Assembly (NCBI GenBank): GCA_016192345.1
Contig: JACPUH010000021.1
Location: forward strand, 58,523 to 122,522
Length of the DNA: 64,000 bases
Reading direction: 5' to 3'
Source: Ignavibacteriales bacterium
GTDB lineage: Bacteria > Bacteroidota > Ignavibacteria > UBA10030
Under the pieces are notes generated by a model. That model searched no databases. It worked only from the letters and a program-made list of their open reading frames with translations, and had not been told where the DNA came from. Numbering within the stretch: position 1 is the stretch's first letter; every line of letters begins with the position of its first letter. Both the position numbers and the translations under genes were made by a program. Positions 3,751 to 64,000 of this stretch are shown piece by piece.

Positions 3751-5280
3751 TTATGGAATCCCGAATTCATCCTTGTATACCTTCCGGAGCAGGGCCGCCG
3801 CATTGTCGGGCGGGGTTCCAAACCTGTGAAGAATCAATGAGAGCATGACAAAGCTGGGTTGGTCCGCATCCTTAACACCCATAATCGGTTGACCGGCCCA
3901 ACGCGGGGACGCCTGCATGCGATACAGCACCCTCGTGTTCACTTTGGGGATGACACCACGGGGAAAGGCGTAGATCGTGCCAAGATTGTCCCGTACCAGC
4001 GTCGGGTAAGCCGGATCAAACGACGTCTCGACGGTATCGCTGGCATTCAACCGGTTGGTGAAGAAGCTTGGCTCGACATTTTCGATGGGAGCAAAATCCA
4101 CCAAGCTCCCCTGTCCGCTCACATTTTCCGGCAGACCTGCGCTGAACATCACCTTCCCTCCTGCTTTCACAAATTCAGGCAGACTGGATTGGGCGATCTC
4201 AAGGCTCGGCGAATTATCGGAATACCAGAAAATGTACTTGAAGAGCTTGATCGATTCCGTAAAAGTCGGGTTGATCAGCGGTGGCATATTGTCCCCGCGT
4301 TTGATCGCCGTTGCCCCCTTCTTGATATCCCAAACATCCCGGGATCCGAGCCTTCCCCCCATCAACGTATCGAACATCGTTTTATAAAAAGAGGTGGAAA
4401 AATCAGAGGGCAAATAATCGTCCACAATGAGAAAATCGCCTTTGGGATGCCGCACATACCATGTACGATTTTCATCCGGCATGCGGATCGTTGCACTGTA
4501 GGCGCCGGCAACATCCTTGGCCTTCAGGTAAAACACATGCAGGCCTTCCGGCAGGGACGCGGACCGATAGGTAATGGGATCGGCCGGAGTGATCGCTTTG
4601 TTGTGGAACAAGGTGACGCGATTGAAGGATCCGGGCAGGGTCTGCCAGGCACCCGCTGCCATGGTGTCGTCAACCGCAACATAGAACGAATCGATGGTAC
4701 CGTTGCCATCAAAATCCGTCGCATTCCACTGAAATGTAGCGATCGGATAGGTGGTATCGGGGACGTTGGCGCTCAGGAGGAACGACACGACCGGCGGTGT
4801 ATTTTGGATCGGGTAACGAAGCTTCGCTGGGGTCGGATCGACCAACCCGAGGTCTGTATACGGTTCCCCTTCGTCCCACCGGTTATTGGTATTTTGATCA
4901 ACGTACGGTTCCGCGCCCCAGGGCCCGGCTGCATCGTAACGACCGTTGCCGCTATTATCGATCGCGGAGACAAAGAAGGAATAGGTCGTGTCCGTGGTAT
5001 TCAACCGGAGAGCAAAGAGGCTGTCATTGCGGAGGGTGAAATGCCACGACAGGCTGTCGAAGGAAAACACGAATCCCACGACGAAACCGTCTTCGTCCGC
5101 TCCCCACCACCGAATATGTTGCTGGCTGCTCGTACGGCGGAGCAAAACGTCGGGCTGGAGAGAAAGATACGTTTCGGGTGTCTTGTTTTCAAGGGGCTCA
5201 TTGACGAATCGTTCGGAACACCCCTGCCAAAACACCAGGAACGCGAACGTCAGTATCGGGAACCGGGTCAATAGGCGCAT
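3751..5280 (-). CDS. hypothetical lipoprotein, translationally coupled upstream of the TonB-dependent receptor
   Basis: 509 aa. N-terminus MRLLTRFPILTFAFLVFWQGCSE gives a signal peptide and lipobox Cys. Its stop lies 2 nt from the receptor start. I recognise no enzymatic motif. Confidence 0.6.
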   Translation of the reverse strand: MRLLTRFPILTFAFLVFWQGCSERFVNEPLENKTPETYLSLQPDVLLRRTSSQQHIRWWGADEDGFVVGFVFSFDSLSWHFTLRNDSLFALRLNTTDTTYSFFVSAIDNSGNGRYDAAGPWGAEPYVDQNTNNRWDEGEPYTDLGLVDPTPAKLRYPIQNTPPVVSFLLSANVPDTTYPIATFQWNATDFDGNGTIDSFYVAVDDTMAAGAWQTLPGSFNRVTLFHNKAITPADPITYRSASLPEGLHVFYLKAKDVAGAYSATIRMPDENRTWYVRHPKGDFLIVDDYLPSDFSTSFYKTMFDTLMGGRLGSRDVWDIKKGATAIKRGDNMPPLINPTFTESIKLFKYIFWYSDNSPSLEIAQSSLPEFVKAGGKVMFSAGLPENVSGQGSLVDFAPIENVEPSFFTNRLNASDTVETSFDPAYPTLVRDNLGTIYAFPRGVIPKVNTRVLYRMQASPRWAGQPIMGVKDADQPSFVMLSLILHRFGTPPDNAAALLRKVYKDEFGIP

Positions 5281-23816: not shown

Positions 23817-25361
23817 TCAGGATTGTGTTTCCATCATGCGTTTGAACACCACCCGTCGGCGCCACCGAAACAAGCCGTAGAGAACAATCAAGAGTGGCGG
23901 ACCGGCGAGGTTTGCATACTTGAGAAATTGCTTAGTACCATCCGACACTTGTTCCAGCGGTGGGGTCGCGACGTTTTTTGATCGAATCGTGATCAACCCC
24001 GCATCATCCGCAAGATAATCCACAATATTGACAAAGAGCGTCATGTTCGCCCTATTCCCCAGATATTCATCCTTCATAAAATCACCGTCACCGAAGACAA
24101 GGATGCGGGTTTCCGGACTTTGCGCGATGGGGCTCACGGGTTGCTTCTCTGCAAAGAAACTCCTGAACGATCCGTGCACCAGGGCTGCGAGCGGGACGTG
24201 TTGCTCTGCCATGTCGGCGGGGGTGTAACGCTGGAACGGGTCGATCATGAAAAATCCGGTCTGACGACCACTCTGTTTCGAAGAACGCAACAACACCTCC
24301 ACCTGCAATCCTTTGGTTGCCGCAAGACTTGTATCAACAGAGCTCGTGAAGGGGAGAACAACGGCCTGGAGATCCTTGACGATCGGATTGTCCTCGCTGA
24401 AGTTTGAAATGATGGGTATGTACGGGAACGGGACCTGGCTTTGAAACGTGAATCCGCCCTGTTGTTGCATCACGGAAATGTTGGCGCACTGTGCATCCCT
24501 GATGAGATCGGGATTGACCCGAATGCCATAGTGTTCCAGCAAGTCATCGAGACCCAGTTCAACGGTCGATCCGAACCGGGCTTGTAAATTGGCGTTGACG
24601 CGGTTCAGCAGGAAGGCGATTTTCCCCCCTCGCATCAGGTGCTGGTCGATATTAAATTTCGCCGTGTCGGAAAATCGCATCGCGGGGGAGATCACGAGAA
24701 GCGCCGCAAGGTCGTCCGGGACGGGTTCCATGCGCGTGAGGTCGACCGGAACGAGATCGTATTGCTGGCTCAGGGTCTGTTGAACCTGCCGAAGACTTCC
24801 GGGTTCCGCTTCCTGATGTCCCGTGGAATACCCTACTTTCTTTTTCGAGCGCGAGGTCAAGCGTTTCAAGGCGCTGCTGATGTCGTATTCCAGTGATCCA
24901 AGGTTCTGAATGACGGGAAGGACTTCTTTCCGATCCTCGTAGAGCATGACAAGCCCGAGATACCCGCGCTTGATTTCAAACTTGTCCTCCTTCACCACCT
25001 GGACCTGGACCGGCGCGATCCCCTGCTGTTGCGCCTCTTCTTCCCCTTTCTCCCCTTCGGGGTTAATGAAATCGAAGTGTAGATTCCCGCCGGCATAGGC
25101 TTTATAATCGTTCAGGATATCCAGCACGGCACGCCGGTTGTTGTTGTACGGGGCGGGGAGATCCTCCGTGAAATAGGCTTTGACCGTGACCCTGTCGTCC
25201 AGGGTCCCGACAAGGCTCTTGCTCGCGTCCGAGAGCGTGTAGACGTTCTGATGAGTAAGGTCGAGACGTCCAAACAGACGGACGGAGATCACGTTCACCG
25301 CCACGAGGATGGCGAGAATCAACAGCGTTCGAATAAGGGCCTGGGTTTTCTTGGCTTTCAT
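23817..25361 (-). CDS. GldG-like auxiliary component of an ABC-2 transporter (PF09822)
   Basis: 514 aa. N-terminal TM, a large periplasmic domain (DLTHQNVYTLSDASKSL...VKAYFTEDLP...DYKAYAGGNLHFDFINP) and a C-terminal TM helix. Confidence 0.7.
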   Translation of the reverse strand: MKAKKTQALIRTLLILAILVAVNVISVRLFGRLDLTHQNVYTLSDASKSLVGTLDDRVTVKAYFTEDLPAPYNNNRRAVLDILNDYKAYAGGNLHFDFINPEGEKGEEEAQQQGIAPVQVQVVKEDKFEIKRGYLGLVMLYEDRKEVLPVIQNLGSLEYDISSALKRLTSRSKKKVGYSTGHQEAEPGSLRQVQQTLSQQYDLVPVDLTRMEPVPDDLAALLVISPAMRFSDTAKFNIDQHLMRGGKIAFLLNRVNANLQARFGSTVELGLDDLLEHYGIRVNPDLIRDAQCANISVMQQQGGFTFQSQVPFPYIPIISNFSEDNPIVKDLQAVVLPFTSSVDTSLAATKGLQVEVLLRSSKQSGRQTGFFMIDPFQRYTPADMAEQHVPLAALVHGSFRSFFAEKQPVSPIAQSPETRILVFGDGDFMKDEYLGNRANMTLFVNIVDYLADDAGLITIRSKNVATPPLEQVSDGTKQFLKYANLAGPPLLIVLYGLFRWRRRVVFKRMMETQS

Positions 25362-25410
25362 ATCTTCATACTTTCATACTTCGATATTTTCCTGACATGA
25401 AATACGCCCA

Positions 25411-27304: not shown

Positions 27305-28366
27305 TTAGAAAAGGCTGAATTGGCCGCGGGGCATGCGCCGGAAATGCTCTGTGGTCAGCCGCAGCTTTCTCCGGTTCAAACCGTAGTGCCTGCACTGCAG
27401 TTCGAACAGTCGTTCGATGGCTTCGGCAATTGGCCCTTCGCCGGTCATGCGTTTCCCGAATTCCGAGTTTGTCATTTTCCCATCTCGCACGCTACGGATA
27501 CGGTTGAGGATTTTCGCGGCAGAGTCCGGCAGCTCCCGCTCCACCCATTCCACAAACAGGTCCTTCACGGCGAAGGGAAGACGGACGATCGTGTGACCAG
27601 CGGTGGTGGCACCGCGAGCCGCTGCTTCCTTCAGAATTGCGGGGATCTCGGCATCTGTCAACCCCGGAATCAAAGGCGCAACGTTGACACCGACGGGAAT
27701 CCCGTTCCGGGCCAGGGTCTCTATTGTTTCAAGCCTTTTGACGGGCGTCGAGGTTCTGGGTTCCATTTTTCGGATCAGATCGGCGTTCAAAGATGTCACA
27801 GAGATCACGACGACAACCAGGTTGAAAACTGAGAGTTCCCTGAGAATATCGATATCGCGCCGCACCAGGGCATTTTTCGTGATGATGGCAAGAGGATTCC
27901 GGAACCGGGAGAAGACTTCAAGGCACTGGCGGGTAATTGTCAGCTTCCGTTCGACGGGCTGGTAGCAATCGGTATTGCCGGAAAGCACAACAACTTCCGG
28001 CTTCCAGGTTGGTGCGTTAAATTGCTCTTCGAGGAGCCTCGCCGCGTCCGTCTTGACCAGGATCCTGGTCTCAAAGTCAAGACCGGAGGAGAAGCCAAGG
28101 TATTCGTGCGAAGGACGGGCGTAGCAATAAATACATCCATGCTCGCAACCGCGGTACGGATTCAGACTGTAGGTGAACCCGATATCGGGACTGTCGTTGC
28201 TGGCGAGGATCGATTTGGTATGATCGAAATAATACCTGGTAAGAACCTTCCGGTCGGGATCGGGGTCTTCAAAGTAGCGGGCGAGATCCTCCGGGGGCGG
28301 GCCCACGTGGAGTTCTTCGAACCGGTTGGGGGGATTGAATCCGGCAGCACGCCCTTTCACTTCCAT
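27305..28366 (-). CDS. radical SAM protein of the SplB/DNA-photolyase-like family (COG1533)
   Basis: 353 aa. Cluster-binding motif YRGCEHGCIYCYARP (CxxxCxxC), with a family-typical N-terminus and the helical C-terminal half. Confidence 0.7.
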   Translation of the reverse strand: MEVKGRAAGFNPPNRFEELHVGPPPEDLARYFEDPDPDRKVLTRYYFDHTKSILASNDSPDIGFTYSLNPYRGCEHGCIYCYARPSHEYLGFSSGLDFETRILVKTDAARLLEEQFNAPTWKPEVVVLSGNTDCYQPVERKLTITRQCLEVFSRFRNPLAIITKNALVRRDIDILRELSVFNLVVVVISVTSLNADLIRKMEPRTSTPVKRLETIETLARNGIPVGVNVAPLIPGLTDAEIPAILKEAAARGATTAGHTIVRLPFAVKDLFVEWVERELPDSAAKILNRIRSVRDGKMTNSEFGKRMTGEGPIAEAIERLFELQCRHYGLNRRKLRLTTEHFRRMPRGQFSLF

Positions 28367-28518
28367 GAGGAATTTGATCCATATCGGTTTAACAGGTTGA
28401 AGAGCCGCGGCTTTATTTATCCACGAAGGTCACCAAGGGCACAAAAAAAAATTTGTCGAAAAGAGAACCTTCTTCGTGATATTTCGTGGACTTCGTGGAT
28501 CGTTTCTTTCCCCGCCAG

Positions 28519-29754
28519 CTAGAATGGAATATCGGTCTTCGTCACCCCGGCCTCCGCCTGTTGGCGGGCGATGAAGCTCCGGATTTCTTCCTTTATATCC
28601 TCAGCGGTCCGCGCGTCGTCCTTCAGGAAGTACTCCGACCATTTGGTGCCATAACGGACGTGGTTGATCTCATCCGACCAGTCGGCATCGGCAAAGATCA
28701 TCGAGCGGCCATCCCCCTCCTGTTGATATTTGAGAAACCGGGGGCTCTTGCGCTTCATAAAGAAGACCTCGAGATCACGCGTCAGATAGACAAGCCGGTG
28801 GAGGAACGGCCAGTTTTGGGATTGATCAAAGAAGAAAGTATCCGCGCGACTCGGTTCCTCCCCCAATTCCTTCAGGCGTATGGCGCCGAACTGCGAATGG
28901 CGCAATTCATCCCAGCAATGGTGGGCCATGTCATAGTGGAATTCCCACGGGCAGCCTGCATCCCAGGAATCCACGATCACGCTGGCGAGCAATCCGACCG
29001 CCCACAGTTCGTTGAAGAAAACGGCGAACTGTTCCTTCACGCTCTGCTCGTGCGGCATGGACTCGCGCTCCTCGTACTTCGCCAGGGGTTTTCGCGCAAT
29101 CCGGGAATCGAATTTCAATTCGGCGGATCTGCGAACCATATGGGCATGCGGCCGCTCTTTCGCCGGCATCATGGAAACGGGGAACGTACCATGGATCCCC
29201 CCGGCCCGGGAAAGCAGGTATTCCAGATAGAGCTGCCAGGGAGCCGCGACATTGCCGCCCGTGGGACATCGTTCGAGAATTTCTTCACTCCACCGGAGAT
29301 GTTTCTCCAGATCGGGGATCATACGTTGGAGAATTCTGATCTCCCCCGCATTTGCGGCGGGGTCCGCCATGCGAACATGTTCCCGGTACGCACGCAGCAA
29401 CGCGCGTTTCACTCCGCCGTACAAACCGGCAACGAGTTCGGTCACATCGCGGGCATGCAGGGCCTCGTCGAGCGCGAACTTGAGTGCCGGGGCAATATCG
29501 GCTTCGGCATGGCCGCCGCGCAACTCATGCAATCGTTCGCGCATCCACTGGACATGCTCCGCGTGGTCCCACAGGTGATATCCGAGAACGTATTTATCCT
29601 CATAGGCCGGAGCTTCCAACAACCACGCCGCACAGATGCGCATGCATTGTTGTTCCACAAAAATGGAGCGGCGCAAGAGTGCAGCGGATTCGGTCACGCT
29701 CAACCCTTGATACGATCGTTCGGTCAGCGGGACGGTTGATGAGATGGTTTCCAT
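28519..29754 (-). CDS. hypothetical protein, possible ferritin-like di-iron carboxylate protein
   Basis: Track ORF starts at a GTG at 29814. I prefer the internal ATG (METISSTVPL) because AGGA sits 6 nt upstream. Two ExxH-type pairs are present (WDHAEHVQW ; HHCWDELRHSQF). No family was recognised with confidence. Confidence 0.4.
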   Translation of the reverse strand: METISSTVPLTERSYQGLSVTESAALLRRSIFVEQQCMRICAAWLLEAPAYEDKYVLGYHLWDHAEHVQWMRERLHELRGGHAEADIAPALKFALDEALHARDVTELVAGLYGGVKRALLRAYREHVRMADPAANAGEIRILQRMIPDLEKHLRWSEEILERCPTGGNVAAPWQLYLEYLLSRAGGIHGTFPVSMMPAKERPHAHMVRRSAELKFDSRIARKPLAKYEERESMPHEQSVKEQFAVFFNELWAVGLLASVIVDSWDAGCPWEFHYDMAHHCWDELRHSQFGAIRLKELGEEPSRADTFFFDQSQNWPFLHRLVYLTRDLEVFFMKRKSPRFLKYQQEGDGRSMIFADADWSDEINHVRYGTKWSEYFLKDDARTAEDIKEEIRSFIARQQAEAGVTKTDIPF

Positions 29755-29885
29755 GGATATCCTGAACAATGTACCGTTCGTGAATGAGGAAGAGTGTGAA
29801 TCAACATACCTCACTCCGGGAGGAGTTACAACGAAAAAAATCCTCGACTACTTTTCACTAAGAAAACGTGAAACGAAGAAGTGCT

Positions 29886-30995: not shown

Positions 30996-31104
30996 AATCA
31001 GCAATCAGCGGTCAGCATTCCGCCTTCTGCCTTCTGCCTCCTGCCTTCTGCCCTCTACATCCTCCTTACCCTTTGCTACTTAATACTTATTACTTGTTAC
31101 TTTC
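30996..31104. repeat. three consecutive heptanucleotide tandem arrays in the promoter region of the AmmeMemo-type radical SAM gene
   Basis: (RATCAGC)x3 at 30996-31016, (TCTGCCT)x5 at 31018-31052 and (TACTTNN)x4 at 31077-31104. The plus strand is strongly G-depleted across ~180 nt. Confidence 0.7.
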
Positions 31105-33266: not shown

Positions 33267-33379
33267 AAGCACAGTCTAAAATTCAGTATAGAGCTGCCAC
33301 TCAAGGCGATGGCTTTTTTCTTTCCACGAAACATACAAAGCGATTTTTCGTGTATTTCGTGGGCTGCTCCTTTCGATCA

Positions 33380-35719: not shown

Positions 35720-35799
35720 GGGAGGATGCTCATGCTTGCTCTGTCTGTTCGGGAAGGATACGGGAATGGAAACGGAACAATCCAAAGATGCCCGTCACG

Positions 35800-36069
35800 T
35801 TACACGCGGTACACTTTTTCCTCCAGCCGTGCAAGGCGTTGTTTCAACTCGCGCATGACCCTCCCTTGCTCGACGATAATCGACATCATGATGCTTTCGA
35901 ACGGGATGGTCCGCATGGCATAAAAATTGGCCGCCAGTTGCCGCCGCGCGGAGCGAAAGACCTCATCGAAGAGTTCCTGGTCTTCCTTGCGGAGTCCCTG
36001 CCGGTACTTCGACCAGCTGACGATCTCGCTGTCGATGATGTTCGTGAAGGTCGGTACGGTACGTCCCAT
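35800..36069 (-). CDS. small hypothetical protein with C-terminal coiled-coil
   Basis: About 89 aa (MGRTVPTFTNIIDSEIVSWSKYRQGL...MRELKQRLARLEEKVYRV). A strong SD, GGAGGAG, sits 7 nt upstream of the ATG. Its 5' part overlaps the 3' tail of the upstream ORF in another frame. Confidence 0.5.
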   Translation of the reverse strand: MGRTVPTFTNIIDSEIVSWSKYRQGLRKEDQELFDEVFRSARRQLAANFYAMRTIPFESIMMSIIVEQGRVMRELKQRLARLEEKVYRV

Positions 36070-36790
36070 AACGGTCTCCTCCTTTCGCCGGGGGAACCTC
36101 ATTTCCGCTCCGGTGGATGATTGGTGTGCTGAGTTCCTCCTGCTCCAGGATCAATCGGGATACTTCCGGCCTGACATCCAGCCGGTAGACCCGGTCTGCA
36201 CGGGCCTTGACGGTTGTGAACAGGATGTTTCGCTCCTCCGGCAAAACCTGTCGGTCCGTGCATGCCAGGAGGAGGGAAACCCCGGCGCGCTTCAACTCAT
36301 GCAGCGTCGCCAGCACGCGCACCAGAATCTGTCGTACTTCACGGAACGGGGCCTGCTCGTCGTAGAACGTATCGAGCAAGCCGAGGATCAAGACGGTGTT
36401 GGCCTGCTGTTTCCGGCAAACCTCCGGCAACCGGTTCACGATGGTCTGTTCCATCTGGTAGCAGGTAAAGCTCCGTGAAACGAAAATACGACGCAGGAAA
36501 TCGTCGGGGTTGCGTTTCCCGTACTGTGCGAACCGGATGACCGCGTGAGCGTTGAACCGGTTCCCGCCGTCAGCCACCACGACATGGCCCCCTTCCGCCA
36601 GCATCGCGGAGGCAATGTTCATGGAGAGATCAAATACGGGCCGGTCGCCGTACAACAGGTACACCTTGCCGGGAGGCCGGGAAAACCGTTGCACCAGCTC
36701 CTCGGCCTGCAGGACGGGTCTTGCAAGAGAGGAGTGCGGCGCGGGGGGGGGCGGATATCGCCCGTGGGCTCCATGGCCTCCCATGCTCAT
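35963..36790 (-). CDS. RecA-fold (ImuA/SulA-like) protein with degenerate Walker A
   Basis: The track ORF extends to 37015, but its first 76 codons overlap the DUF72 gene. I prefer the Met at 36790, which overlaps the DUF72 stop (ATGA). The core GKVYLLYGDRPVFDLSMNIASAMLAEGGHVVVADGGNRFNAHAVIRFAQ ... TVLILGLLD follows the RecA/KaiC/ImuA strand-loop-helix pattern without GKT/S. The last ~35 aa are low-complexity and overlap the small ORF, so a frameshift or an earlier true stop is possible. Confidence 0.5.
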   Translation of the reverse strand: MSMGGHGAHGRYPPPPAPHSSLARPVLQAEELVQRFSRPPGKVYLLYGDRPVFDLSMNIASAMLAEGGHVVVADGGNRFNAHAVIRFAQYGKRNPDDFLRRIFVSRSFTCYQMEQTIVNRLPEVCRKQQANTVLILGLLDTFYDEQAPFREVRQILVRVLATLHELKRAGVSLLLACTDRQVLPEERNILFTTVKARADRVYRLDVRPEVSRLILEQEELSTPIIHRSGNEVPPAKGGDRYGTYRTDLHEHHRQRDRQLVEVPAGTPQGRPGTLR

Positions 36791-37704
36791 CGTTCCTCCG
36801 GATGCGGGGAAAACAACGGATGAAGGATATTCACCGGCGTACTGATCGGCTGGAGGACGGGAAACGCCTTCACGAGACGATCCGGCACCAGCACCGGATG
36901 CCGCGACCGCAGCAGGTGCCGCAACTGGAATCCGTTTATGAAGGAACAGGCTCCTCCATCGTTGTTGAAGCTCACATGCACGATTCCGGATTGCTCCGCC
37001 CGCTTCAAACGCCATGCGAGATCCTGGAGCTCACGGTCGTTATAGCAATAGTCATACCGGTATCCCCGCGTGGGGTCCCACCATGCCGCGGCATTCCTCC
37101 CCATCAAACGAAAATAGGAAACGCCATTCCACGCGGCATCGGTGAGCGGCATAGCGCGTCCCACTACGGGAACATCGATATTGACCAAATGGAATTTATT
37201 CTCCTGGAAAAAGTTGTACATCATCGGACTGTTCCATGAATTATGCCTCACCTCAACGAACAACCGGTACGGTTGGAAAGCACGCGCGAGTTCCATAAGA
37301 TAGAGGCGCCGTTCCCGGATATTGGTGAACGAGTACGGGAACTGCATCAGGAGGCCCCCCAGCCGGTTGGCCGCCGCAAGAGGTTCCAGAAGTCTGTGCG
37401 TTGCAAGGACATCCCCCTGGTCAGCCGTGCCCGTATGGGTGAACCCGCGGAACAATTTCACCGAGGAGAAAAGAAAGTGCTTGTTGGCGGCAACATCCCG
37501 CAGCCACCGGCGGGCATGGATCGGCGTCAACGCCGAACTGTAGAATGACGAGTGAATTTCCACACTATCAAAAAACTGGCTGTAATACTCCAGTTTCCGG
37601 AACCCCCGCTTTGTCCCCGGGGGATAAAATACCCGGTCGAACGGCTCCAGGTCCCATCCCCCCATCCCGATAAAGATCTTCGAACGATCGACATGCATGG
37701 ACAC
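36787..37704 (-). CDS. DUF72 (YecE/UPF0759) family protein
   Basis: 305 aa. IFIGMGGWDLEPFDRVFYPPGTKRGFRKLEYYSQFFDSVEIHSSFYS matches the DUF72 N-terminal signature. GGAGGG lies upstream of the ATG. Confidence 0.75.
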   Translation of the reverse strand: MSMHVDRSKIFIGMGGWDLEPFDRVFYPPGTKRGFRKLEYYSQFFDSVEIHSSFYSSALTPIHARRWLRDVAANKHFLFSSVKLFRGFTHTGTADQGDVLATHRLLEPLAAANRLGGLLMQFPYSFTNIRERRLYLMELARAFQPYRLFVEVRHNSWNSPMMYNFFQENKFHLVNIDVPVVGRAMPLTDAAWNGVSYFRLMGRNAAAWWDPTRGYRYDYCYNDRELQDLAWRLKRAEQSGIVHVSFNNDGGACSFINGFQLRHLLRSRHPVLVPDRLVKAFPVLQPISTPVNILHPLFSPHPEER

Positions 37705-37854
37705 CCTCCTTTAAAAAAGGCGTCATCGTTCGACCTCGCTCACGATGACATGATTTTGTATTGCTCGAGAAGCTGAACATAGAACATCACTCAGCTCCCG
37801 GTGACCACTTGACACCAACACGAAAATTGTCTACATTGGCCTCGTCAAGGATGC

Positions 37855-41366: not shown

Positions 41367-42344
41367 TTATTGTTTTCCGAGCAACTTCTTCACTTCGGCG
41401 GACAACGCGGGAATAATTTCAAAGGCATCCGCCACAATACCGTAACTCGCCACCTGGAAGATGGGCGCATCCTTATCCCTGTTGACAGCCACAATATACT
41501 TCGAAGAGGACATTCCCGCAAGGTGTTGAATGGCCCCCGATACGGCGACCGCTATATAAAGAGAGGGGGAAACCGTTTTTCCCGTTTGTCCCACCTGTTC
41601 ATCATGCGGCCTCCATCCGGCATCGACGACCGCGCGGGAGGCACCGACAGCGCCCCCCAGCGTTGCAGCGAGTTCTTCGATCATGGCAAAATTTTCCGGA
41701 CCCTTAAGCCCACGCCCTCCTGTCACGATGATATCCGCCTCTGCCACGTCAAGTTTTGCGGACGATTGCTTCACCTCCTTGACGATGGAGCGGAAATCCT
41801 GTTCCGTCAGCGGGACCTCGACCACCTCGACCGGCGCAGTGCCTCCGCTGCTCGTTCCGGCGGTAAAGACATTGGGACGAAGGGAAAAAACCTTGACCGG
41901 TGATTTCACTCGTATCTCCGTTAACGCTTTGCCCGCATAGACTGGCCGCGTGGCAAGGATGTCTCCCTGGTCCACTGTGAGAGCAGTACAATCGGCAGCG
42001 AGGCCGGCATCCAGCTTGACCGCGATGCGTGGAGCAAGATCTTTTCCCATGGCCGTGGCGGGAAGCAGCACGACGTTCGCAGCTTGCGTCTTTGCGACCC
42101 CGGCAACGATCGTGGCATACGCCGTCGAGGAATAGAGTGCCAGGCGGGCATCTTCCACCACGACAACCTTGTGCGCACCGTAGCCCCCGAGTTCCGGAGC
42201 GATCGACCGGACACCGGAACCAACAACCACGGCGACCACCTCGCCTCCGGTTTGATCGGCCACCCTTCTGGCTGCCTTCACCACTTCAAACGCAGGCTTC
42301 TTGAATTTATTGTCACGCTGTTCTGCAAAAGCAATTATTTTCAT
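41367..42344 (-). CDS. etfA: electron transfer flavoprotein alpha subunit
   Basis: MKIIAFAEQRDNKFKKPAFEVVKAARRV... The C-terminal FAD-binding half has GISGAIQHLAGM-type motifs (AVSGAIQHLAGMSSSKYIVAVNRD). Confidence 0.9.
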   Translation of the reverse strand: MKIIAFAEQRDNKFKKPAFEVVKAARRVADQTGGEVVAVVVGSGVRSIAPELGGYGAHKVVVVEDARLALYSSTAYATIVAGVAKTQAANVVLLPATAMGKDLAPRIAVKLDAGLAADCTALTVDQGDILATRPVYAGKALTEIRVKSPVKVFSLRPNVFTAGTSSGGTAPVEVVEVPLTEQDFRSIVKEVKQSSAKLDVAEADIIVTGGRGLKGPENFAMIEELAATLGGAVGASRAVVDAGWRPHDEQVGQTGKTVSPSLYIAVAVSGAIQHLAGMSSSKYIVAVNRDKDAPIFQVASYGIVADAFEIIPALSAEVKKLLGKQ

Positions 42345-42501
42345 AATCGATCAGTTGTTTACCGACAGGATACTGAACAGTCTTGGTTTGACGTATCCAC
42401 TAAGAACACGAAGGGACACGAAAATATGAAACCTCATCTTAAAAAAAGTCTTAGTGGACTTTGTGTCCTTGGTGGATGATTTGCTTTACTGCGACGCCCG
42501 G

Positions 42502-43248
42502 CTAAATCACTTTGGCTTCTTCGTGCAGCAGACGGACGAGTTCCGGCACTGCGCCGACATCGGTACCGACAATTTTCCCGGCCTGCTTTGCCGGAGGTTT
42601 CACCATCGTGATCGTTTCCACCTTTGCCTCCATCGGAGCCGGTTGGCGTTCCTCAATCGGTTTGCCTTTCGCCGCCATAATCCCTTTGAGGGAGGGGTAC
42701 CGGGGTTCATAGGCCCCTTTTTGAATGGTAAAGACAGCGGGAAGCTGCACCTCCACCACCTCATGCCCCCCTTCAATTTCACGGTCCGCCTTTGCGGTCC
42801 CGCCGGTAATTTCCATCGATACCACAACAGCGGCAGAGGGGAGTCCAAGCATCTCCGCCACCATAATCCCGACGGCAGAATCGTCGTAATCGACTGATTG
42901 TTTGCCGAACAGGATCACGTCGGGTGCAAGCTCCCGAAGATAATCAGCCAAAGCCCGTGCCACACCGAAGGAATCACGCGTCGAATCGTCCTTGAGCAAA
43001 ACGGCCTTATCGACCCCCATGGCAAGTGCTTTACGGAGCGACTCCTTGTGCGCATCTCCGCCCCAGGAAAGAACGATAACTTCCCCGGACTGTTTTTCCT
43101 TGAACCGGAGGGCCGCTTCGACGGCGTATTCGTCGTACGGGCTGATAACATAATTCACCCCGGTTTTCTCGATACTTTTTCCATCCGGCCCGACATGGAC
43201 CTTCGTGGCGGTGTCAGGAACATGATTGATGCAAACGGCAAATTTCAT
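42502..43248 (-). CDS. etfB: electron transfer flavoprotein beta subunit
   Basis: MKFAVCINHVPDTATKVHVGPDGKSIEKTGVNYVISPYDEYAVEAALRFKE is a canonical EtfB N-terminus. Confidence 0.9.
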   Translation of the reverse strand: MKFAVCINHVPDTATKVHVGPDGKSIEKTGVNYVISPYDEYAVEAALRFKEKQSGEVIVLSWGGDAHKESLRKALAMGVDKAVLLKDDSTRDSFGVARALADYLRELAPDVILFGKQSVDYDDSAVGIMVAEMLGLPSAAVVVSMEITGGTAKADREIEGGHEVVEVQLPAVFTIQKGAYEPRYPSLKGIMAAKGKPIEERQPAPMEAKVETITMVKPPAKQAGKIVGTDVGAVPELVRLLHEEAKVI

Positions 43249-44825: not shown

Positions 44826-45091
44826 TGGCGGAAAAAGGTAGAGAAATTGGAGGTTTTTGACAAGGTAAAAAGATGCTGGGTGAACCTTTATTGAAAGGGG
44901 GTCACAGTCCTGTACGCCGGCTGGCCGGGGCCAGAGGACACAGAGATTATAGCGTTTTATAAGGCAGATTGCGGTATTCCGAAAAACGACTACGTTCTTC
45001 GGTGTGTTACGAGCAAGTAGTAAGTATCAAGCACGGTTTTTTCTCTGTGTCTCCGTGCAAAGTCACCCTGCAAAAATTTTTAAAATAATTC

Positions 45092-49856: not shown

Positions 49857-50170
49857 AAGATCACCCACCCCGCCCGACTGCTGACGCAGTCATGCGGGCG
49901 GGGAATCTGCACGAATGATTGTCTGGAAAGGCCAATGTTAATCGTTCTTCGCGGAGATTCGCGAGGATTCGTGGGAACTCGAAGGGTTTAAGCTCCACTC
50001 CCCCTGCCCCCTCTCCAATGTTGGAGAGGGGGGTCGTCAGCCATGTTTTGTCGGGGTAATGGGGCAACCTGACGCGGAAGCTCAAAGCAGGCACTCATCA
50101 ATGAGCTTGGCGATTGATGCAGAAGAGATCGAGTGCAACAAATTCGTCTATAATCCAATAGATCGGCTCT

Positions 50171-52856: not shown

Positions 52857-53138
52857 AGAGGGGCCCACGAATCCCTTCGGGTCTGAGTTAGGCGCGCATT
52901 TCCTCAGGGTCGAAGACTTCACTAATCTGCGCGAATAGGTTCATGAAAAATCTCGTTTCGTTTGTCCACGAAGTGCACAGCCGGAGACTTATAAACTGAA
53001 GGATGCGAGAGCATCCTGCCAATTGGACCTGTCATTTCTTCAAGGGGCCATACGCCCAGGAGGGAGCACGCTTCGCGTGCTTCAGTAGTATGCCTTCGGC
53101 TGTGAAGATTCGTGTGGATTCGTGGGGAAAAGATTTTT

Positions 53139-59269: not shown

Positions 59270-59408
59270 CATAGTTTTTTTACTGTTTGCTGTTAACGCC
59301 GTACGTTTCGGTGAGCCAAGATCCAAATAGAAAAATGCTACGCATTTCTTGTTAATAGGCCTCCGGCTGTTCACGGTTCACCAACCAGGCCTTACCCACG
59401 AAGATTCC

Positions 59409-60194: not shown

Positions 60195-60195
60195 T

Positions 60196-60240
60196 TTCGC
60201 GGATTTACGCGGATGGACGCGGATGAACGCGGATTACGCT
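60196..60240. repeat. four 10-bp phased direct repeats CGCGGATNNN immediately after the LmbE-like gene stop
   Basis: cgcggattta cgcggatgga cgcggatgaa cgcggattac. The 10-bp period places all copies on one helical face. It lies 180 nt upstream of the NagB-like gene. Confidence 0.6.
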
Positions 60241-60423
60241 GATCGGTACGGAGGAGTGATTCCCAATGCATCGTCCGTGGTTAAAGAAGTATTTTTTCAC
60301 CACGGATGACACACCGAAAGACACGGAAAAAAAGAAAGAAGTTGAATTTTCAATATCAGTGCTTATCTGTGTGCCATCCGTGGATAAATCCCCTTAGCCT
60401 TTCCCACAATACCATGACACCCC

Positions 60424-63475: not shown

Positions 63476-63604
63476 CACGGTCTTAAAAAACCTGACACAA
63501 AGGCACCAAGGAAAATATTGGATTTGAATTGCATCGTCGGATCGTTTTCCAAAGCATTCGTGTCTTTGTGACTTCGTGGCAAATAAATCTGAACGGAGGA
63601 TCTC

Positions 63605-64000
63605 ATGAAAATTTCAGTGATCGGAGCCGGGAATGTCGGTTCCACAACTTCCCTTCTGCTCGCGCAACAGCGGCTGGGGGAGATATGGTCCCTCGATATC
63701 GTTGAGGGCATGCCGGAGGGAAAGGCCCTGGATATGGCCGAAGCCGGCCCGGTTGCCCGCTTCGAAAGCCGTATGCATGGCACCGGCAACTTTGAAGATC
63801 TTGTCGGTTCGGATATCGTCGTCATCACCGCGGGACTCGCGCGCAAGCCCGGGATGTCCCGCATGGACCTGCTCACCAAGAACGCCGATATCGTCGGCAC
63901 GGCCGCCCGCCATTGTGCGCGGCTGGCTCCGAAGTCGATCATCGTCGTCGTCACCAACCCGCTCGATGTCATGACCTACGTTGCATGGAAGGAAAGCGGG
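63605..64000 (+). CDS. mdh: malate dehydrogenase (NAD-dependent, LDH-like), 5' partial
   Basis: MKISVIGAGNVGSTTSLLLAQ has the Rossmann GxGxxG. ITAGLARKPGMSRMDLL is the substrate-loop motif. It runs off the window and is absent from the ORF track. Confidence 0.85.
   Translation, partial: MKISVIGAGNVGSTTSLLLAQQRLGEIWSLDIVEGMPEGKALDMAEAGPVARFESRMHGTGNFEDLVGSDIVVITAGLARKPGMSRMDLLTKNADIVGTAARHCARLAPKSIIVVVTNPLDVMTYVAWKESG

What the first reader, a model, noticed from the sequence alone, without database searches (positions are those of the whole stretch)
28431..28500. Dispersed intergenic motif: TTCGTGG direct repeats at a 10-11 bp phase (at least 8 loci in the window)
Short direct repeats of (A/G)TTCGTGG or TTTCGTGG recur in non-coding DNA: 28463-28495 (ttcgtgatatttcgtggacttcgtgg), 33323-33362 (ccacgaaa ... 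tttcgtgtatttcgtggg), 49951-49990 (cttcgcggag attcgcgagg attcgtggga actcgaaggg; four 10-nt units), 52864-52875, 52946-52955 plus 53108-53126 (gattcgtgtggattcgtgggg), 59395-59407 (reverse orientation, right before an ATG), 63557-63579 (just upstream of mdh), plus the related CGCGGAT x4 array at 60196-60240. Several instances are flanked by an inverted copy (ccacgaa ... ttcgtgg) forming a hairpin. Helical phasing suggests a protein-binding array, for example a response regulator or global factor. It could instead be a REP-like dispersed element family characteristic of this genome.
Basis: seen in the sequence. Interest (0 to 1): 0.55.

Follow-up and report, generated by a model that had tools for sequence, protein, structure and literature searches.

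The report
Hairpin repeats tied to GxxExxY nuclease
The TTCGTGG repeats are short "empty" copies of a widespread hairpin-forming repeat whose full-length form, in other bacteria, encloses a small nuclease gene of unknown function (GxxExxY), so they look like miniature selfish DNA rather than regulator binding sites.

Summary
The motif is real but was mis-described. TTCGTGG is not enriched window-wide (14 found, 12.95 expected), yet 10 of the 14 copies lie in the ~7% of the window that is intergenic (p≈4e-9). The true unit is CAC-N-AAG / CTT-N-GTG, repeated every 9-10 nt, 2-3 units per arm, with two arms inverted to form a 70-110 nt hairpin.

A covariance model built only from 117 metagenome copies finds five full hairpins in the window.

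It has no Rfam family and no hit in plasmids or phages. No searched paper contains the unit sequence.

All five independent loci reached from GxxExxY proteins (PF13366/TIGR04256) show the gene bracketed by these arms. Two other GxxExxY subfamilies carry different tandem-unit arms. The protein models as a PD-(D/E)XK nuclease with an invariant D…ExK motif.

Best reading: the window holds non-autonomous copies of a REPIN/MITE-like element linked to GxxExxY. The response-regulator reading is not supported. Mobilisation by GxxExxY is inferred, not shown.

The parts
28409..28510 (.). Full hairpin copy E1. Left arm 28419-28446 is ATCCACGAAGGTCACCAAGGGCACAAAA. Right arm 28469-28500 is CTTCTTCGTGATATTTCGTGGACTTCGTGGAT. 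It lies 18 nt after the stop of the DUF455-like gene (28519-29814, -) and upstream of a radical-SAM gene (27305-28366, -).
   Evidence: CM R1 gives 52.4 bits, E 1.6e-12. Pattern hits. RNA fold -27.5 kcal/mol, z -3.8 on the minus strand. Flanking genes.
42385..42487 (.). Left arm 42395-42424, right arm 42450-42477. It sits in the etfB-etfA spacer, 24 nt after the etfB stop.
   Evidence: CM R1 gives 55.4 bits, E 2.2e-13. It is present in L005 (6 differences in ~141 nt) and absent in L004. Identical in three Logan contigs, L001-L003.
33312..33374 (.). Short hairpin copy E2 with two units per arm: 33323-33340 and 33344-33363. It lies between the convergent genes anmK (stop 33266) and polB-family (stop 33380).
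   Evidence: CM R1 gives 19.3 bits, E 0.004. Fold -16.5 kcal/mol, z -4.0. Flanking genes.
63483..63591 (.). Degenerate hairpin copy E7. Left arm 63494-63511 is GACACAAAGGCACCAAGG. Right arm 63556-63580 is ATTCGTGTCTTTGTGACTTCGTGGC.
   Evidence: CM R1 gives 20.2 bits, E 0.002. Pattern hit. Citrate synthase. The downstream ORF fragment had no Pfam match.
60288..60395 (.). Variant hairpin copy E6 with CACGGA(T) units. Left arm 60296-60329 is TTCACCACGGATGACACACCGAAAGACACGGAAA. Right arm 60367-60388 is CTGTGTGCCATCCGTGGATAAA. Its outer unit resembles the arms of the second GxxExxY subfamily (TTCACAGCGGATGACAG).
   Evidence: CM R1 gives 23.6 bits, E 2.4e-4. Compared by eye with L226 and L227 arms.
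60195..60246 (+). One-armed direct array of 10-nt ACGCGGATNN units (about 5 copies), just upstream of E6. An everted pair TCCGTGGT...ACCACGGA lies at 60274-60306.
   Evidence: TRF reports period 10, 5.8 copies. Sequence read.
49947..49986 (+). One-armed direct array of four 10-nt units (CTTCGCGGAG ATTCGCGAGG ATTCGTGGGA ACTCGAAGGG) in the hisB-hisH spacer. It is partly conserved in L004.
   Evidence: It is not a CM hit.
53107..53127 (+). One-armed array of two units, GATTCGTGTG GATTCGTGGGG. Single inverted units lie at 52864-52875 and 52964-52978 in the same convergent spacer between hisIE and the ACT-domain gene. This may be a disrupted copy.
   Evidence: Not a CM hit. No GxxExxY remnant was detected.
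59395..59403 (-). Single unit CCCACGAAG, 5 nt before an ATG. It is either a remnant or a chance match.
   Evidence: No second unit is present and there is no CM hit.

Best explanation
The TTCGTGG loci are non-autonomous, "empty" copies of a hairpin-forming inverted-repeat element.

**Structure.** Each arm is a tandem run of two to four 9-10-nt units with the core CAC-N-AAG, which reads CTT-N-GTG on the other arm. The two arms pair into a 25-40-bp stem around a non-conserved loop.

**Full-length form.** In other bacteria the same arms bracket a ~370-bp gene for a GxxExxY protein. This is a 123-aa PD-(D/E)XK nuclease (PF13366 / TIGR04256). The complete unit is arm - ~20 nt - gene - ~5 nt - inverted arm.

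**Shown here:**
- The family exists and is very widespread.
- Five window loci are members.
- The free base in the unit covaries between the two arms.
- Copies are dispersed at unrelated loci, and one is polymorphic between close relatives.
- GxxExxY genes are bracketed by these arms.
- Other GxxExxY subfamilies carry different tandem-unit arms.

**Inferred:**
- The GxxExxY protein, probably as a dimer or multimer, recognises the repeated units and cuts or mobilises the element. The short hairpins would then be carried along in trans, as REPINs are with RAYT or MITEs with their transposase.
- In the host, the copies are transcribed as part of mRNAs (etfB-etfA, hisB-hisH, the spacer after the citrate synthase gene). 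There the long stem could incidentally act as a 3' barrier or an RNase III site.
For: **Membership**
- A model built only from 117 metagenome copies scores window loci at 55, 52, 24, 20 and 19 bits.

**Non-random occurrence**
- Arm pattern: 5 found against 0.00 expected.
- Heptamer: 10 of 14 copies in 7.4% of the sequence, p = 4e-9.

**Widespread family**
GC ranges from 0.32 to 0.72.
- Hosts include an ADOP-permease (Acidobacteria-type) contig.

**Pairing**
- At the base left free by the search pattern, 96 of 117 copies form a standard pair, with 30 double changes. The observed Watson-Crick count is 82 against 48 expected.
- The structure beats all 500 shuffles and all slid controls.

**Mobility-like behaviour**
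- Present in the window and L005, cleanly absent in L004.
- Only 3-5 of 80 related species' loci carry it.
- Several contigs hold multiple copies.
- Seven copies share the loop and 12-nt flanks, but the DNA beyond is unrelated.

**Gene link, starting from elements**
- The top recurrent flanking family in the 120 contigs is GxxExxY: 5 contigs, 134-151 bits.
- In L092, L104 and L185 the gene lies between a left and a right arm.

**Gene link, starting from the protein**
- 5 of 5 independent loci are bracketed by a CACGAAG left arm and a CTTCGTG right arm: L204, L206, L207, L213 (Nitrospiraceae MAG) and L214 (Chloroflexota MAG).

**Co-variation of arm and protein**
- The L049/L226/L227 subfamily (38% identical to the first) is flanked by TTCACAGCGGAT...ATCCGCTGTGAA arms.
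- A Flavobacterium member is flanked by GCCACAGATTAAAAGGATTAAAATGATT and its inverse.

**The protein**
- D67, E77 and K79 are invariant.
- Members 80-85% identical occur in MAGs named to different phyla.
- The family has 35,530 cluster representatives.
Against: - No GxxExxY gene or remnant occurs in the 64-kb window. None was found in the L005 or L019 loci either.
- No target-site duplication is evident. The flanks are inverted, not direct.
- A 123-aa PD-(D/E)XK protein is not a known transposase. No activity has been tested.
- The protein-first sample is small (5 + 3 + 1 independent loci). The five are 80-100% identical proteins, so they may represent a single cassette lineage.
- Loops differ between most copies, even within one contig. 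That is unusual for a recently amplified MITE.
- Spacer bases between units pair in only 49-63% of copies.
- No sense-strand excess of G·U over A·C was seen (71 against 99). An RNA-level role therefore has no support from this test.
- The gene could have invaded pre-existing hairpins instead of being their source.
Confidence: 0.65

Rival explanations
1. The hairpins are host elements in their own right: 3'-end RNA hairpins acting as bidirectional terminators, mRNA stabilisers or RNase III sites. GxxExxY genes are secondary invaders, homing-endonuclease-like, that target the hairpin and use the repeated arms as homology for copying.
For: - Copies sit close to stop codons. The median is 24 nt from the end of an ORF of at least 150 aa, and many are at 0-2 nt.
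- They often fill convergent spacers tightly.
- The flanks are A-rich 5' and T-rich 3'.
- Stems covary.
- Arm type co-varying with protein subfamily is also what a homing nuclease and its target would show.
- The protein has a PD-(D/E)XK fold, as some homing endonucleases do (the homing-endonuclease point is my own knowledge).
Against: - There is no U-tract and no orientation bias of the A/T flanks relative to the upstream gene.
- They are not picked up as terminator-like sites.
- There is no G·U excess on the sense strand.
- A hairpin function does not need a 7-nt core conserved across phyla.
- The family is patchy among close relatives, and a copy is absent in L004.
- Dispersed copies sharing a loop need a copying mechanism of their own.
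Confidence: 0.2
2. The direct repeats are a helically phased binding array for a response regulator or global transcription factor that controls the adjacent genes.
For: - Tandem direct repeats with 9-10-nt spacing resemble OmpR/PhoB-type sites (my own knowledge).
- Some copies lie upstream of genes, for example before the ORF at 63633 and the radical-SAM gene.
- The core sequence is conserved beyond what pairing alone needs.
Against: - The dominant period is 9 nt.
- The arms are inverted and the free base covaries.
- Copies lie between convergent genes and inside operons.
- One copy is absent at the orthologous site in a close relative.
- The neighbouring genes are unrelated housekeeping functions.
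- The same element occurs in unrelated phyla next to unrelated genes.
Confidence: 0.04
3. Classical REP/REPIN elements mobilised by a RAYT (an IS200/IS605-type Y1 HUH transposase).
For: Intergenic inverted doublets that form hairpins, with singletons and everted pairs also present. Many copies and patchy distribution.
Against: - I saw no GTAG or CGTC terminal tag in the consensus. Those tags define the two REP superfamilies (PMC3733652).
- The arms are tandem direct units, not small palindromes.
- No recurrent transposase-like family appears among flanking ORFs. The only recurrent small gene is GxxExxY.
- No transposase was found in the window.
Confidence: 0.04
4. Integron attC-like recombination sites, either a cluster of attC sites lacking an integrase or scattered solo sites.
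For: - The flank consensus tttAAC...GTTaaa loosely fits RYYYAAC...GTTRRRY.
- The length is 60-110 nt.
- Copies sit just after stop codons.
- A small ORF enclosed by such sites looks like a cassette.
Against: - No integrase was found in the window.
- Neighbours are housekeeping operons on both strands, not a co-oriented cassette array.
- attC sites are conserved in structure, not in an internal tandem 9-nt unit (my own knowledge).
- In the full cassettes the termini read TCAC-CAC...GTG-GTGA rather than AAC...GTT.
Confidence: 0.03
5. These are functionless simple repeats made locally by replication slippage and template switching. The same habit would produce the other short tandem arrays seen in this lineage's spacers.
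For: Ignavibacteria-like relatives carry many unrelated 7-9-nt tandem arrays in intergenic DNA: 0.40 per kb intergenic against 0.12 per kb coding. The window also has AATCAGC, CCTTCTG and TACTTNT arrays.
Against: Local slippage cannot explain three things. The same 7-nt core recurs at 5-9 separate loci here and in at least 120 unrelated contigs. Dispersed copies share a loop. The arms are linked to one gene family.
Confidence: 0.02

Closest known systems
REPIN-RAYT systems (REP doublets plus a REP-associated tyrosine transposase)
   Same: Short intergenic repeats occur mostly as inverted pairs that fold into a hairpin. Singletons and clusters also exist. There are many copies per genome, and distribution is patchy and lineage-specific. 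The associated single gene is itself flanked by the repeats in inverted orientation. Repeat sequence co-varies with the associated protein. (REPIN/RAYT properties from PMC3116915, PMC2817692 and PMC3733652, listed.)
   Different: The associated protein is a 123-aa PD-(D/E)XK nuclease, not an HUH/Y1 transposase. The arms are tandem 9-10-nt direct units, not small palindromes. I saw no GTAG or CGTC tag. One arm type is shared across several phyla, whereas REPs are lineage-specific.
MITEs and their parent transposons (terminal inverted repeats with sub-terminal repeated binding sites)
   Same: Short non-coding derivatives carry the same inverted ends as a longer gene-carrying form. Dispersed copies include a subfamily with a conserved interior. 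There is presence/absence polymorphism.
   Different: No target-site duplication was seen. The cargo protein belongs to no recognised transposase family. Most short copies have unrelated loops.
Small ORFs inside hairpin-bounded intervening sequences of 23S rRNA (the 'four helix bundle' / S23p genes) - from my own knowledge, not tested here
   Same: A tiny multi-copy gene of unknown function is enclosed by long inverted repeats whose RNA stem is an RNase III substrate.
   Different: It is a different protein fold and a different location (rRNA helices). No tandem-unit arms have been described.
Cyanobacterial STRR heptanucleotide tandem repeats - from my own knowledge
   Same: Short degenerate tandem units confined to intergenic DNA, with function unknown.
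   Different: STRRs are long one-directional arrays. They are not three-unit inverted arms, and they are not linked to a nuclease gene.
Integron attC sites
   Same: Imperfect palindromes of 60-140 nt placed right after stop codons, with AAC...GTT-like outer bases.
   Different: There is no integrase and no cassette array here. The conserved part is an internal tandem unit, not only the R/L boxes.

Membership tests
CACGAAG-unit hairpin family (defined here from metagenome copies) | Two inverted arms of at least 2 units CAC-N-AAG at 8-10-nt spacing, outer end (A/T)CCAC...GTGG(T/A), loop 10-50 nt | tested here: met
   CM R1, built without window sequences, gives 55.4, 52.4, 23.6, 20.2 and 19.3 bits at five window loci. 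Patterns.
CACGAAG-unit hairpin family (defined here from metagenome copies) | Pairing between arms is kept through changes at the free base | tested here: met
   In the family, 96 of 117 copies are paired, with 30 double changes. In the window, E3 differs from L005 by a G·U to G-C change. Window copies are more degenerate than typical family members.
GxxExxY-bracketed cassette (full-length form) | A PF13366/TIGR04256 gene lies between the two arms | tested here: not met
   No GxxExxY gene or remnant was found in the window by tblastn or profile search. The window copies are therefore the empty form only. The host genome outside the 64 kb could not be examined.
REP / REPIN-RAYT | A 20-40-nt imperfect palindrome carrying a terminal GTAG or CGTC tag | tested here: not met
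   By inspection, the consensus of 117 copies and of the window copies shows no such tag. Definition from PMC3733652.
REP / REPIN-RAYT | An associated RAYT (Y1 HUH transposase) gene flanked by the repeats | tested here: not met
   No transposase was found in the window. The only recurrent repeat-flanked gene in 120 contigs is GxxExxY. Whole genomes were not available.
MITE | Terminal inverted repeats shared with a longer coding element | tested here: met
   The same three-unit arms bracket GxxExxY genes.
MITE | Target-site duplication flanking each copy | tested here: not met
   The flanks are mutually inverted (TTTAA...TTAAA, TGAA...TTCA), not direct repeats. A TA at the junction between the window and L004 is compatible with a duplication but not diagnostic.
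MITE | The parent element encodes a recognised transposase | tested here: not met
   The protein has a minimal PD-(D/E)XK nuclease fold, closest to Cas4 and Hjc. No transposase domain is present.
Integron attC | R''/R' core sites RYYYAAC...GTTRRRY with an unpaired central spacer and extrahelical bases | tested here: inconclusive
   The outer consensus tttAAC...GTTaaa is loosely compatible. The stem next to it is a continuous paired tandem unit, and no attC model was available to run.
Integron attC | An array of co-oriented cassettes next to an intI integrase | tested here: not met
   Housekeeping operons lie on both strands, and no integrase was found.
Intrinsic (Rho-independent) terminator | A G+C-rich stem with a short loop, followed by a U-tract on the transcribed strand | tested here: not met
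   The elements are not reported by the terminator scan. There is no T-run and no orientation bias relative to the upstream gene.
Response-regulator (OmpR/PhoB-type) binding array | Direct repeats at 10-11-bp spacing, located at promoters of a regulon | tested here: not met
   The period is 9, then 10. Locations are convergent and intra-operonic. Neighbouring genes are unrelated.
Any Rfam RNA family | Reaches the family's gathering score | tested here: not met
   No matches in the window. In seven element-rich loci the only gathering-level match was a tRNA unrelated to the hairpins. At the E-value threshold, only sub-threshold generic miRNA-hairpin matches appeared.

The most novel reading that the evidence does not exclude
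GxxExxY proteins (PF13366/TIGR04256) have no known function. The family has about 35,000 clusters at 50% identity. They would be the dedicated nucleases of a previously unrecognised, phylum-spanning class of hairpin-ended selfish elements. This would be a PD-(D/E)XK-based counterpart of the REPIN-RAYT system. Each protein subfamily would recognise its own tandem 9-10-nt unit in the arms. Thousands of gene-less miniature hairpins, like those in this window, would be maintained or spread in trans.
Probability: 0.4. Interest if true: 0.8.

Novelty: new variant of a known kind. Interest (0 to 1): 0.62.

Why it matters
For this genome, the repeats should not be annotated as regulator sites. They are dispersed palindromic insertions inside operons (etfB-etfA, hisB-hisH, the spacer after the citrate synthase gene). 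They may affect mRNA processing, and they will confuse motif-based regulon prediction and assembly.

More generally, the result ties a very abundant hairpin repeat of soil, sediment and aquatic bacteria to a very large protein family of unknown function, neither of which I found described together in the searched literature. That gives a concrete, testable hypothesis for both: a small PD-(D/E)XK nuclease that recognises tandem units in hairpin arms.

If mobilisation is confirmed, it adds a second, mechanistically different example of the "single gene plus population of miniature hairpins" lifestyle, known so far from REPIN-RAYT.

Tried and rejected
- **Whole-window heptamer enrichment:** absent. 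The signal lies in placement and in multi-unit arms.
- **Rfam:** no hairpin match at gathering or E-value thresholds.
- **tRNA scan:** none.
- **Canonical promoter/terminator scan:** the elements are not detected and counts are at shuffle level.
- **DnaA-box or oriC idea** (TTATCCACG-like ends, GC-skew minimum near 46-50 kb): dropped, because copies are spread over 35 kb and the same element occurs in hundreds of unrelated contigs.
- **Strand test for an RNA function:** the sense strand showed 71 G·U against 99 A·C, so no support.
- **A/T flank asymmetry relative to the upstream gene:** none, p = 0.73.
- **Are the other tandem arrays in relatives' etfB-etfA spacers the same kind of hairpin?** No. 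Four of five spacers fold no better than shuffles on either strand. In the fifth, L025, the signal comes from an unrelated internal G+C-rich hairpin. I treat them as a separate phenomenon.
- **Plasmid and phage collections:** no match to the consensus. A local BLAST control showed the query is not masked.
- **Literature:** no paper contains the unit sequence. Nothing turned up on Ignavibacteria intergenic repeats or on MITEs in these phyla. GxxExxY/PDDEXK_3 appears only as "function unknown, multiple transfers".
- **PDB by sequence for GxxExxY:** no relative found.
- **Remnant of a GxxExxY gene in the 240-bp interior of the 52.9-53.1 kb locus:** none.
- **Taxonomy of the metagenome contigs:** could not be obtained directly. 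It is inferred only from GC range, an ADOP-permease contig and the two named MAGs.
Full report
**1. Checking the observation**

The exact heptamer TTCGTGG is not over-represented in the window. There are 14 matches on both strands against 12.95 ± 3.9 in dinucleotide-preserving shuffles. Its placement is far from random. 10 of the 14 copies lie in the roughly 7.4% of the window outside long ORFs, binomial p = 3.7e-9.

Reading all intergenic stretches showed that the real unit is CAC-N-AAG, which reads CTT-N-GTG on the other strand. It is repeated two to three times at 9-10-nt spacing. These runs usually come as two inverted arms.

- A three-unit arm pattern, CCACNAAN{2,5}CACNAAN{2,5}CACNAA, matches 5 times against 0.00 expected, always in intergenic DNA.
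- A full hairpin pattern matches two loci against 0.00 expected.

**2. The host and the gene context**

No tRNA genes or Rfam families were found.

Pfam scans show ordinary housekeeping genes:
- a his operon and etfBA
- citrate synthase
- radical-SAM enzymes and anmK
- a family-B polymerase
- ABC transporters
- a T9SS-tailed protein

No transposase or integrase is present.

The closest genomes found through EtfA are Ignavibacteria-like / Bacteroidota MAGs, with the best at 89% identity. The window is 99.98-100% identical to three Logan metagenome contigs.

The hairpins sit in these places:
- 18-24 nt after the stop codons of the DUF455-like gene, etfB and citrate synthase
- in the convergent spacer between anmK and polB
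- between a PIG-L-family gene and an unannotated ORF at 60.3 kb

One-armed arrays or single units lie in the hisB-hisH spacer and in the convergent spacer between hisIE and the ACT-domain gene. These are locations inside operons and between convergent genes, not promoters.

**3. A very widespread family**

One metagenome scan used the hairpin pattern, which has 24 specified bases.

The consensus of 117 distinct copies is aAAA..TTTAA-CCACgAAG-ga-CACgAAG-g..CACgAAGg-[loop]-cCTTcGTG..CTTcGTG-tc-CTTcGTGG-TTAAa..TTTT.

Other features of the 117 copies:
- Most have three units per arm.
- The period is 9 nt (319 cases), 10 nt (82) or 8 nt (12).
- The matched element (first CCAC to last GTGG) has a median length of 73 nt.
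- The loops are not conserved.

One long contig encodes ADOP permeases well above the NCBIfam cut-off, which points to an Acidobacteria-type host.

The consensus has no match in 72,556 plasmids or 50,697 phage records. A local control showed the query is not masked. No Rfam family matches the hairpins. No paper in the library contains the unit sequence.

**4. Is it a paired structure?**

The search pattern left several positions free, which gives an unbiased test.

| Position | Result |
|---|---|
| Middle base of the outer unit | 96 of 117 copies form a standard pair: G-C 53, A-U 17, C-G 13, G-U 13, with 30 double changes |
| Same base, Watson-Crick pairs | 82 observed against 48 expected under independence |
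| First flanking pair | paired in 93% of copies, decaying outward |
| The two spacer bases between units | paired in only 63% and 49% of copies |

The whole structure exceeds all 500 column shuffles and all slid controls.

So the 7-nt cores and their pairing are what is kept. The stem is best seen as a string of 7-8-bp helices.

Tests for an RNA role gave nothing:
- The sense strand has no G·U excess (71 G·U against 99 A·C).
- The A/T flanks have no orientation bias relative to the upstream gene (p = 0.73).
- There is no U-tract, and the terminator scan reports none of the elements.

Copies do sit near gene ends. The median distance from the stop of an ORF of at least 150 aa is 24 nt. Many copies are at 0-2 nt, where the TAA or TGA of the flank can itself be the stop codon. 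They also occur in divergent spacers.

**5. Objective membership of the window loci**

A covariance model built only from the metagenome alignment was run on the window with filters off.

| Locus | Bits | E-value |
|---|---|---|
| 42385-42487 | 55.4 | 2e-13 |
| 28409-28510 | 52.4 | 2e-12 |
| 60288-60395 | 23.6 | 2e-4 |
| 63483-63591 | 20.2 | 2e-3 |
| 33312-33374 | 19.3 | 4e-3 |

**6. Behaviour like mobile or rapidly turning-over DNA**

- The etfB-etfA copy is present in the window and in L005. There are only 6 differences in ~141 nt, against about 82% identity for the surrounding DNA. One difference turns a G·U into a G-C.
- The whole ~141-bp block is cleanly absent in L004, which is equally close.
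- In 1.26 Mb from 80 related species, the model finds clear copies only in L005, L019 and L049, plus two weak hits.
- Several metagenome contigs carry 2-3 copies. Lone arms and everted pairs also occur.
- Seven contigs share the entire ~100-nt element, including the loop GGYTTYNGGTCTCAGGCRTTTCC and 12-nt outer flanks. The DNA beyond is unrelated. These are dispersed copies of one short element.

**7. The link to a gene**

An all-against-all comparison of ORFs in the 120 contigs found no recurrent transposase. The most recurrent flanking family is the GxxExxY protein, TIGR04256 (5 contigs, 134-151 bits).

In L092, L104 and L185 the gene lies between a left arm and a right arm. In L148 and L203 a complete hairpin abuts it.

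To remove the selection bias, I started again from the protein.
- All 8000 scored candidates passed E ≤ 1e-10.
- The top 120 are 80-100% identical 123-aa proteins. They include MAGs named Nitrospiraceae and Chloroflexota.
- Fetching their contigs gave five independent loci: L204/L205, L206, L207/L208/L216-L225, L213 and L214.
- In every one the gene is preceded by ...CCACGAAG-ga-CACGAAG-gg-CACGAAGg, then 15-25 nt containing an AGGAA-type ribosome site and a GTG start.
- Four of the five carry the complete inverted arm cCTTCGTG-tc-CTTCGTG-ac-CTTCGTGG within about 90 nt after the stop codon; it is 2-10 nt away in L204, L207 and L213 and about 85 nt away in L206. In L214 a single CTTCGTG unit follows the stop and a complete hairpin lies about 90 nt further on.
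- The cassette sits between ordinary host genes.

**8. Arm type follows protein subfamily**

| Subfamily | Identity | Arms |
|---|---|---|
| L049's GxxExxY protein and relatives L226, L227 | 38% to the first subfamily; L226 and L227 are 63-66% identical to L049 | complete hairpins or arms of a different tandem unit, TTCACAGCGGAT-TAAGGGAT... / ...ATCCcTTAATCCGCTGTGAA |
| A Flavobacterium member | 45% to L049 | GCCACAGATTAAAAGGATTAAAATGATT and its inverse |

The outer end CAC(A/G)...(C/T)GTG is common to all types. The window's variant copy at 60.3 kb begins TTCACCACGGATGACAC, and the adjacent ACGCGGAT array resembles the second arm type.

This co-variation is what one expects if the protein recognises the arms. 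It is also what a homing nuclease and its target would show.

**9. The protein**

- D67, E77 and K79 (the D...ExK motif), the GxxExxY motif, Q91 and Y95 are invariant in the 23-sequence alignment spanning these subfamilies.
- The AlphaFold model is confident, with mean pLDDT 93.8.
- No PDB relative is detectable by sequence.
- A profile search finds 35,530 cluster representatives at E ≤ 1e-3. Many top hits are ~270-aa fusions of two GxxExxY domains, which suggests a dimeric working unit.
- The only literature statement found is "function unknown; multiple transfers, mixed clades" for PDDEXK_3 (PMC3424549).

**10. Interpretation**

Shown:
- The window's TTCGTGG loci belong to a widespread hairpin family built from tandem CAC-N-AAG units.
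- The family behaves like dispersed, gained-and-lost DNA.
- The same arms enclose GxxExxY nuclease genes, and other GxxExxY subfamilies have other arms.

Inferred:
- The protein acts on the arms.
- The short hairpins are non-autonomous derivatives carried in trans (REPIN-RAYT-like or MITE-like).

The main rival is that the hairpins are host RNA elements which the gene invades by homing. The present data do not separate "source" from "target". The dispersed loop-sharing copies and the lack of any RNA-strand signal lean towards a selfish element.

The response-regulator reading, classical REP/RAYT, attC, an intrinsic terminator and slippage-only readings each fail at least one tested defining feature (see the membership table).

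Caveats:
- The window itself has no GxxExxY gene, and only 64 kb of the genome is visible.
- No target duplication was seen.
- The protein-first sample is small and drawn from closely related proteins.
- Nothing here tests activity.

**11. Novelty and score**

The kind of thing is known: an intergenic palindromic repeat with an associated gene flanked by the same repeats.

The particular combination was not found in Rfam, the plasmid or phage collections, or the searched literature. That combination is tandem-unit arms, a core conserved across phyla, and a minimal PD-(D/E)XK protein in place of a Y1 transposase. I therefore rate it a new variant of a known kind.

Interest is moderate to high. 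This is because it gives a testable function to a very large uncharacterised protein family, not because of anything special about this window.

Noticed in passing
window 30996-31102 and 25355-25391: Three back-to-back heptamer arrays sit in one spacer: AATCAGC x3, (C)CTTCTG(C) x5-6 and TACTTNT x4. A CATACTT-type array lies in another spacer. They are unrelated in sequence to the CACGAAG units.
   Followed up: no
L007, L010, L013, L016, L017, L019, L020, L023, L025: about 230 nt upstream of etfA: Other Ignavibacteria-like species carry different short tandem arrays in the same etfB-etfA spacer (ACCAATT, CGATT, AATTGCC and TTTTTCC units), often right up to the start codon. Of the five spacers folded, four do no better than shuffles on either strand; L025 does (z about -2 to -2.7) through an unrelated internal G+C-rich hairpin. 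Across the loci, such arrays are 3.3 times denser in intergenic than in coding DNA.
   Followed up: partly
window 50003-50036; L019 5470-5530 and 5640-5700; L016 near 3910-4050: A second type of G/C-rich hairpin module (CCCCCTCTCC...GGAGAGGGGGG; GGGGTCTGTCCCCCTCTCTGAGGGGGA) sits next to the CACGAAG elements. In L019 a ~200-bp composite of both modules is tandemly duplicated.
   Followed up: no
proteins P0133-P0150 and similar: Many of the best-scoring GxxExxY representatives are ~270-aa proteins with two GxxExxY domains in tandem. This suggests the single-domain form works as a dimer.
   Followed up: no
window 42344-42502 compared with L004 9984-10001: The junction of the ~141-bp block that L004 lacks reads GATTTA|G...GGTA|AACA. 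This is compatible with a TA duplication, but the block extends 25 and 34 nt beyond the hairpin on either side and those extensions are not inverted repeats.
   Followed up: partly
window 44950-45080; L004 7484-7505: A 13-bp inverted repeat, GAGGACACAGAGA...TCTCTGTGTCTCC, is separated by about 100 nt in the spacer upstream of the PALP gene. The orthologous L004 spacer has a CTCTGTG x3 array. This may be a diverged CACAGAG-unit relative of the family.
   Followed up: no
window, about 46-50 kb: Cumulative GC skew reaches its minimum here. Several hairpin ends resemble DnaA boxes (TTATCCACG). I judged this coincidental because the elements are dispersed, but I did not test it further.
   Followed up: no
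window 35786-37760: About 2 kb has overlapping ORFs on both strands, no Pfam match for the 350-aa ORF, and long stretches my crude map calls intergenic. It lies next to a family-B DNA polymerase gene and a LexA-like (HTH + S24 peptidase) gene, and could be a pseudogene or mis-called region.
   Followed up: no
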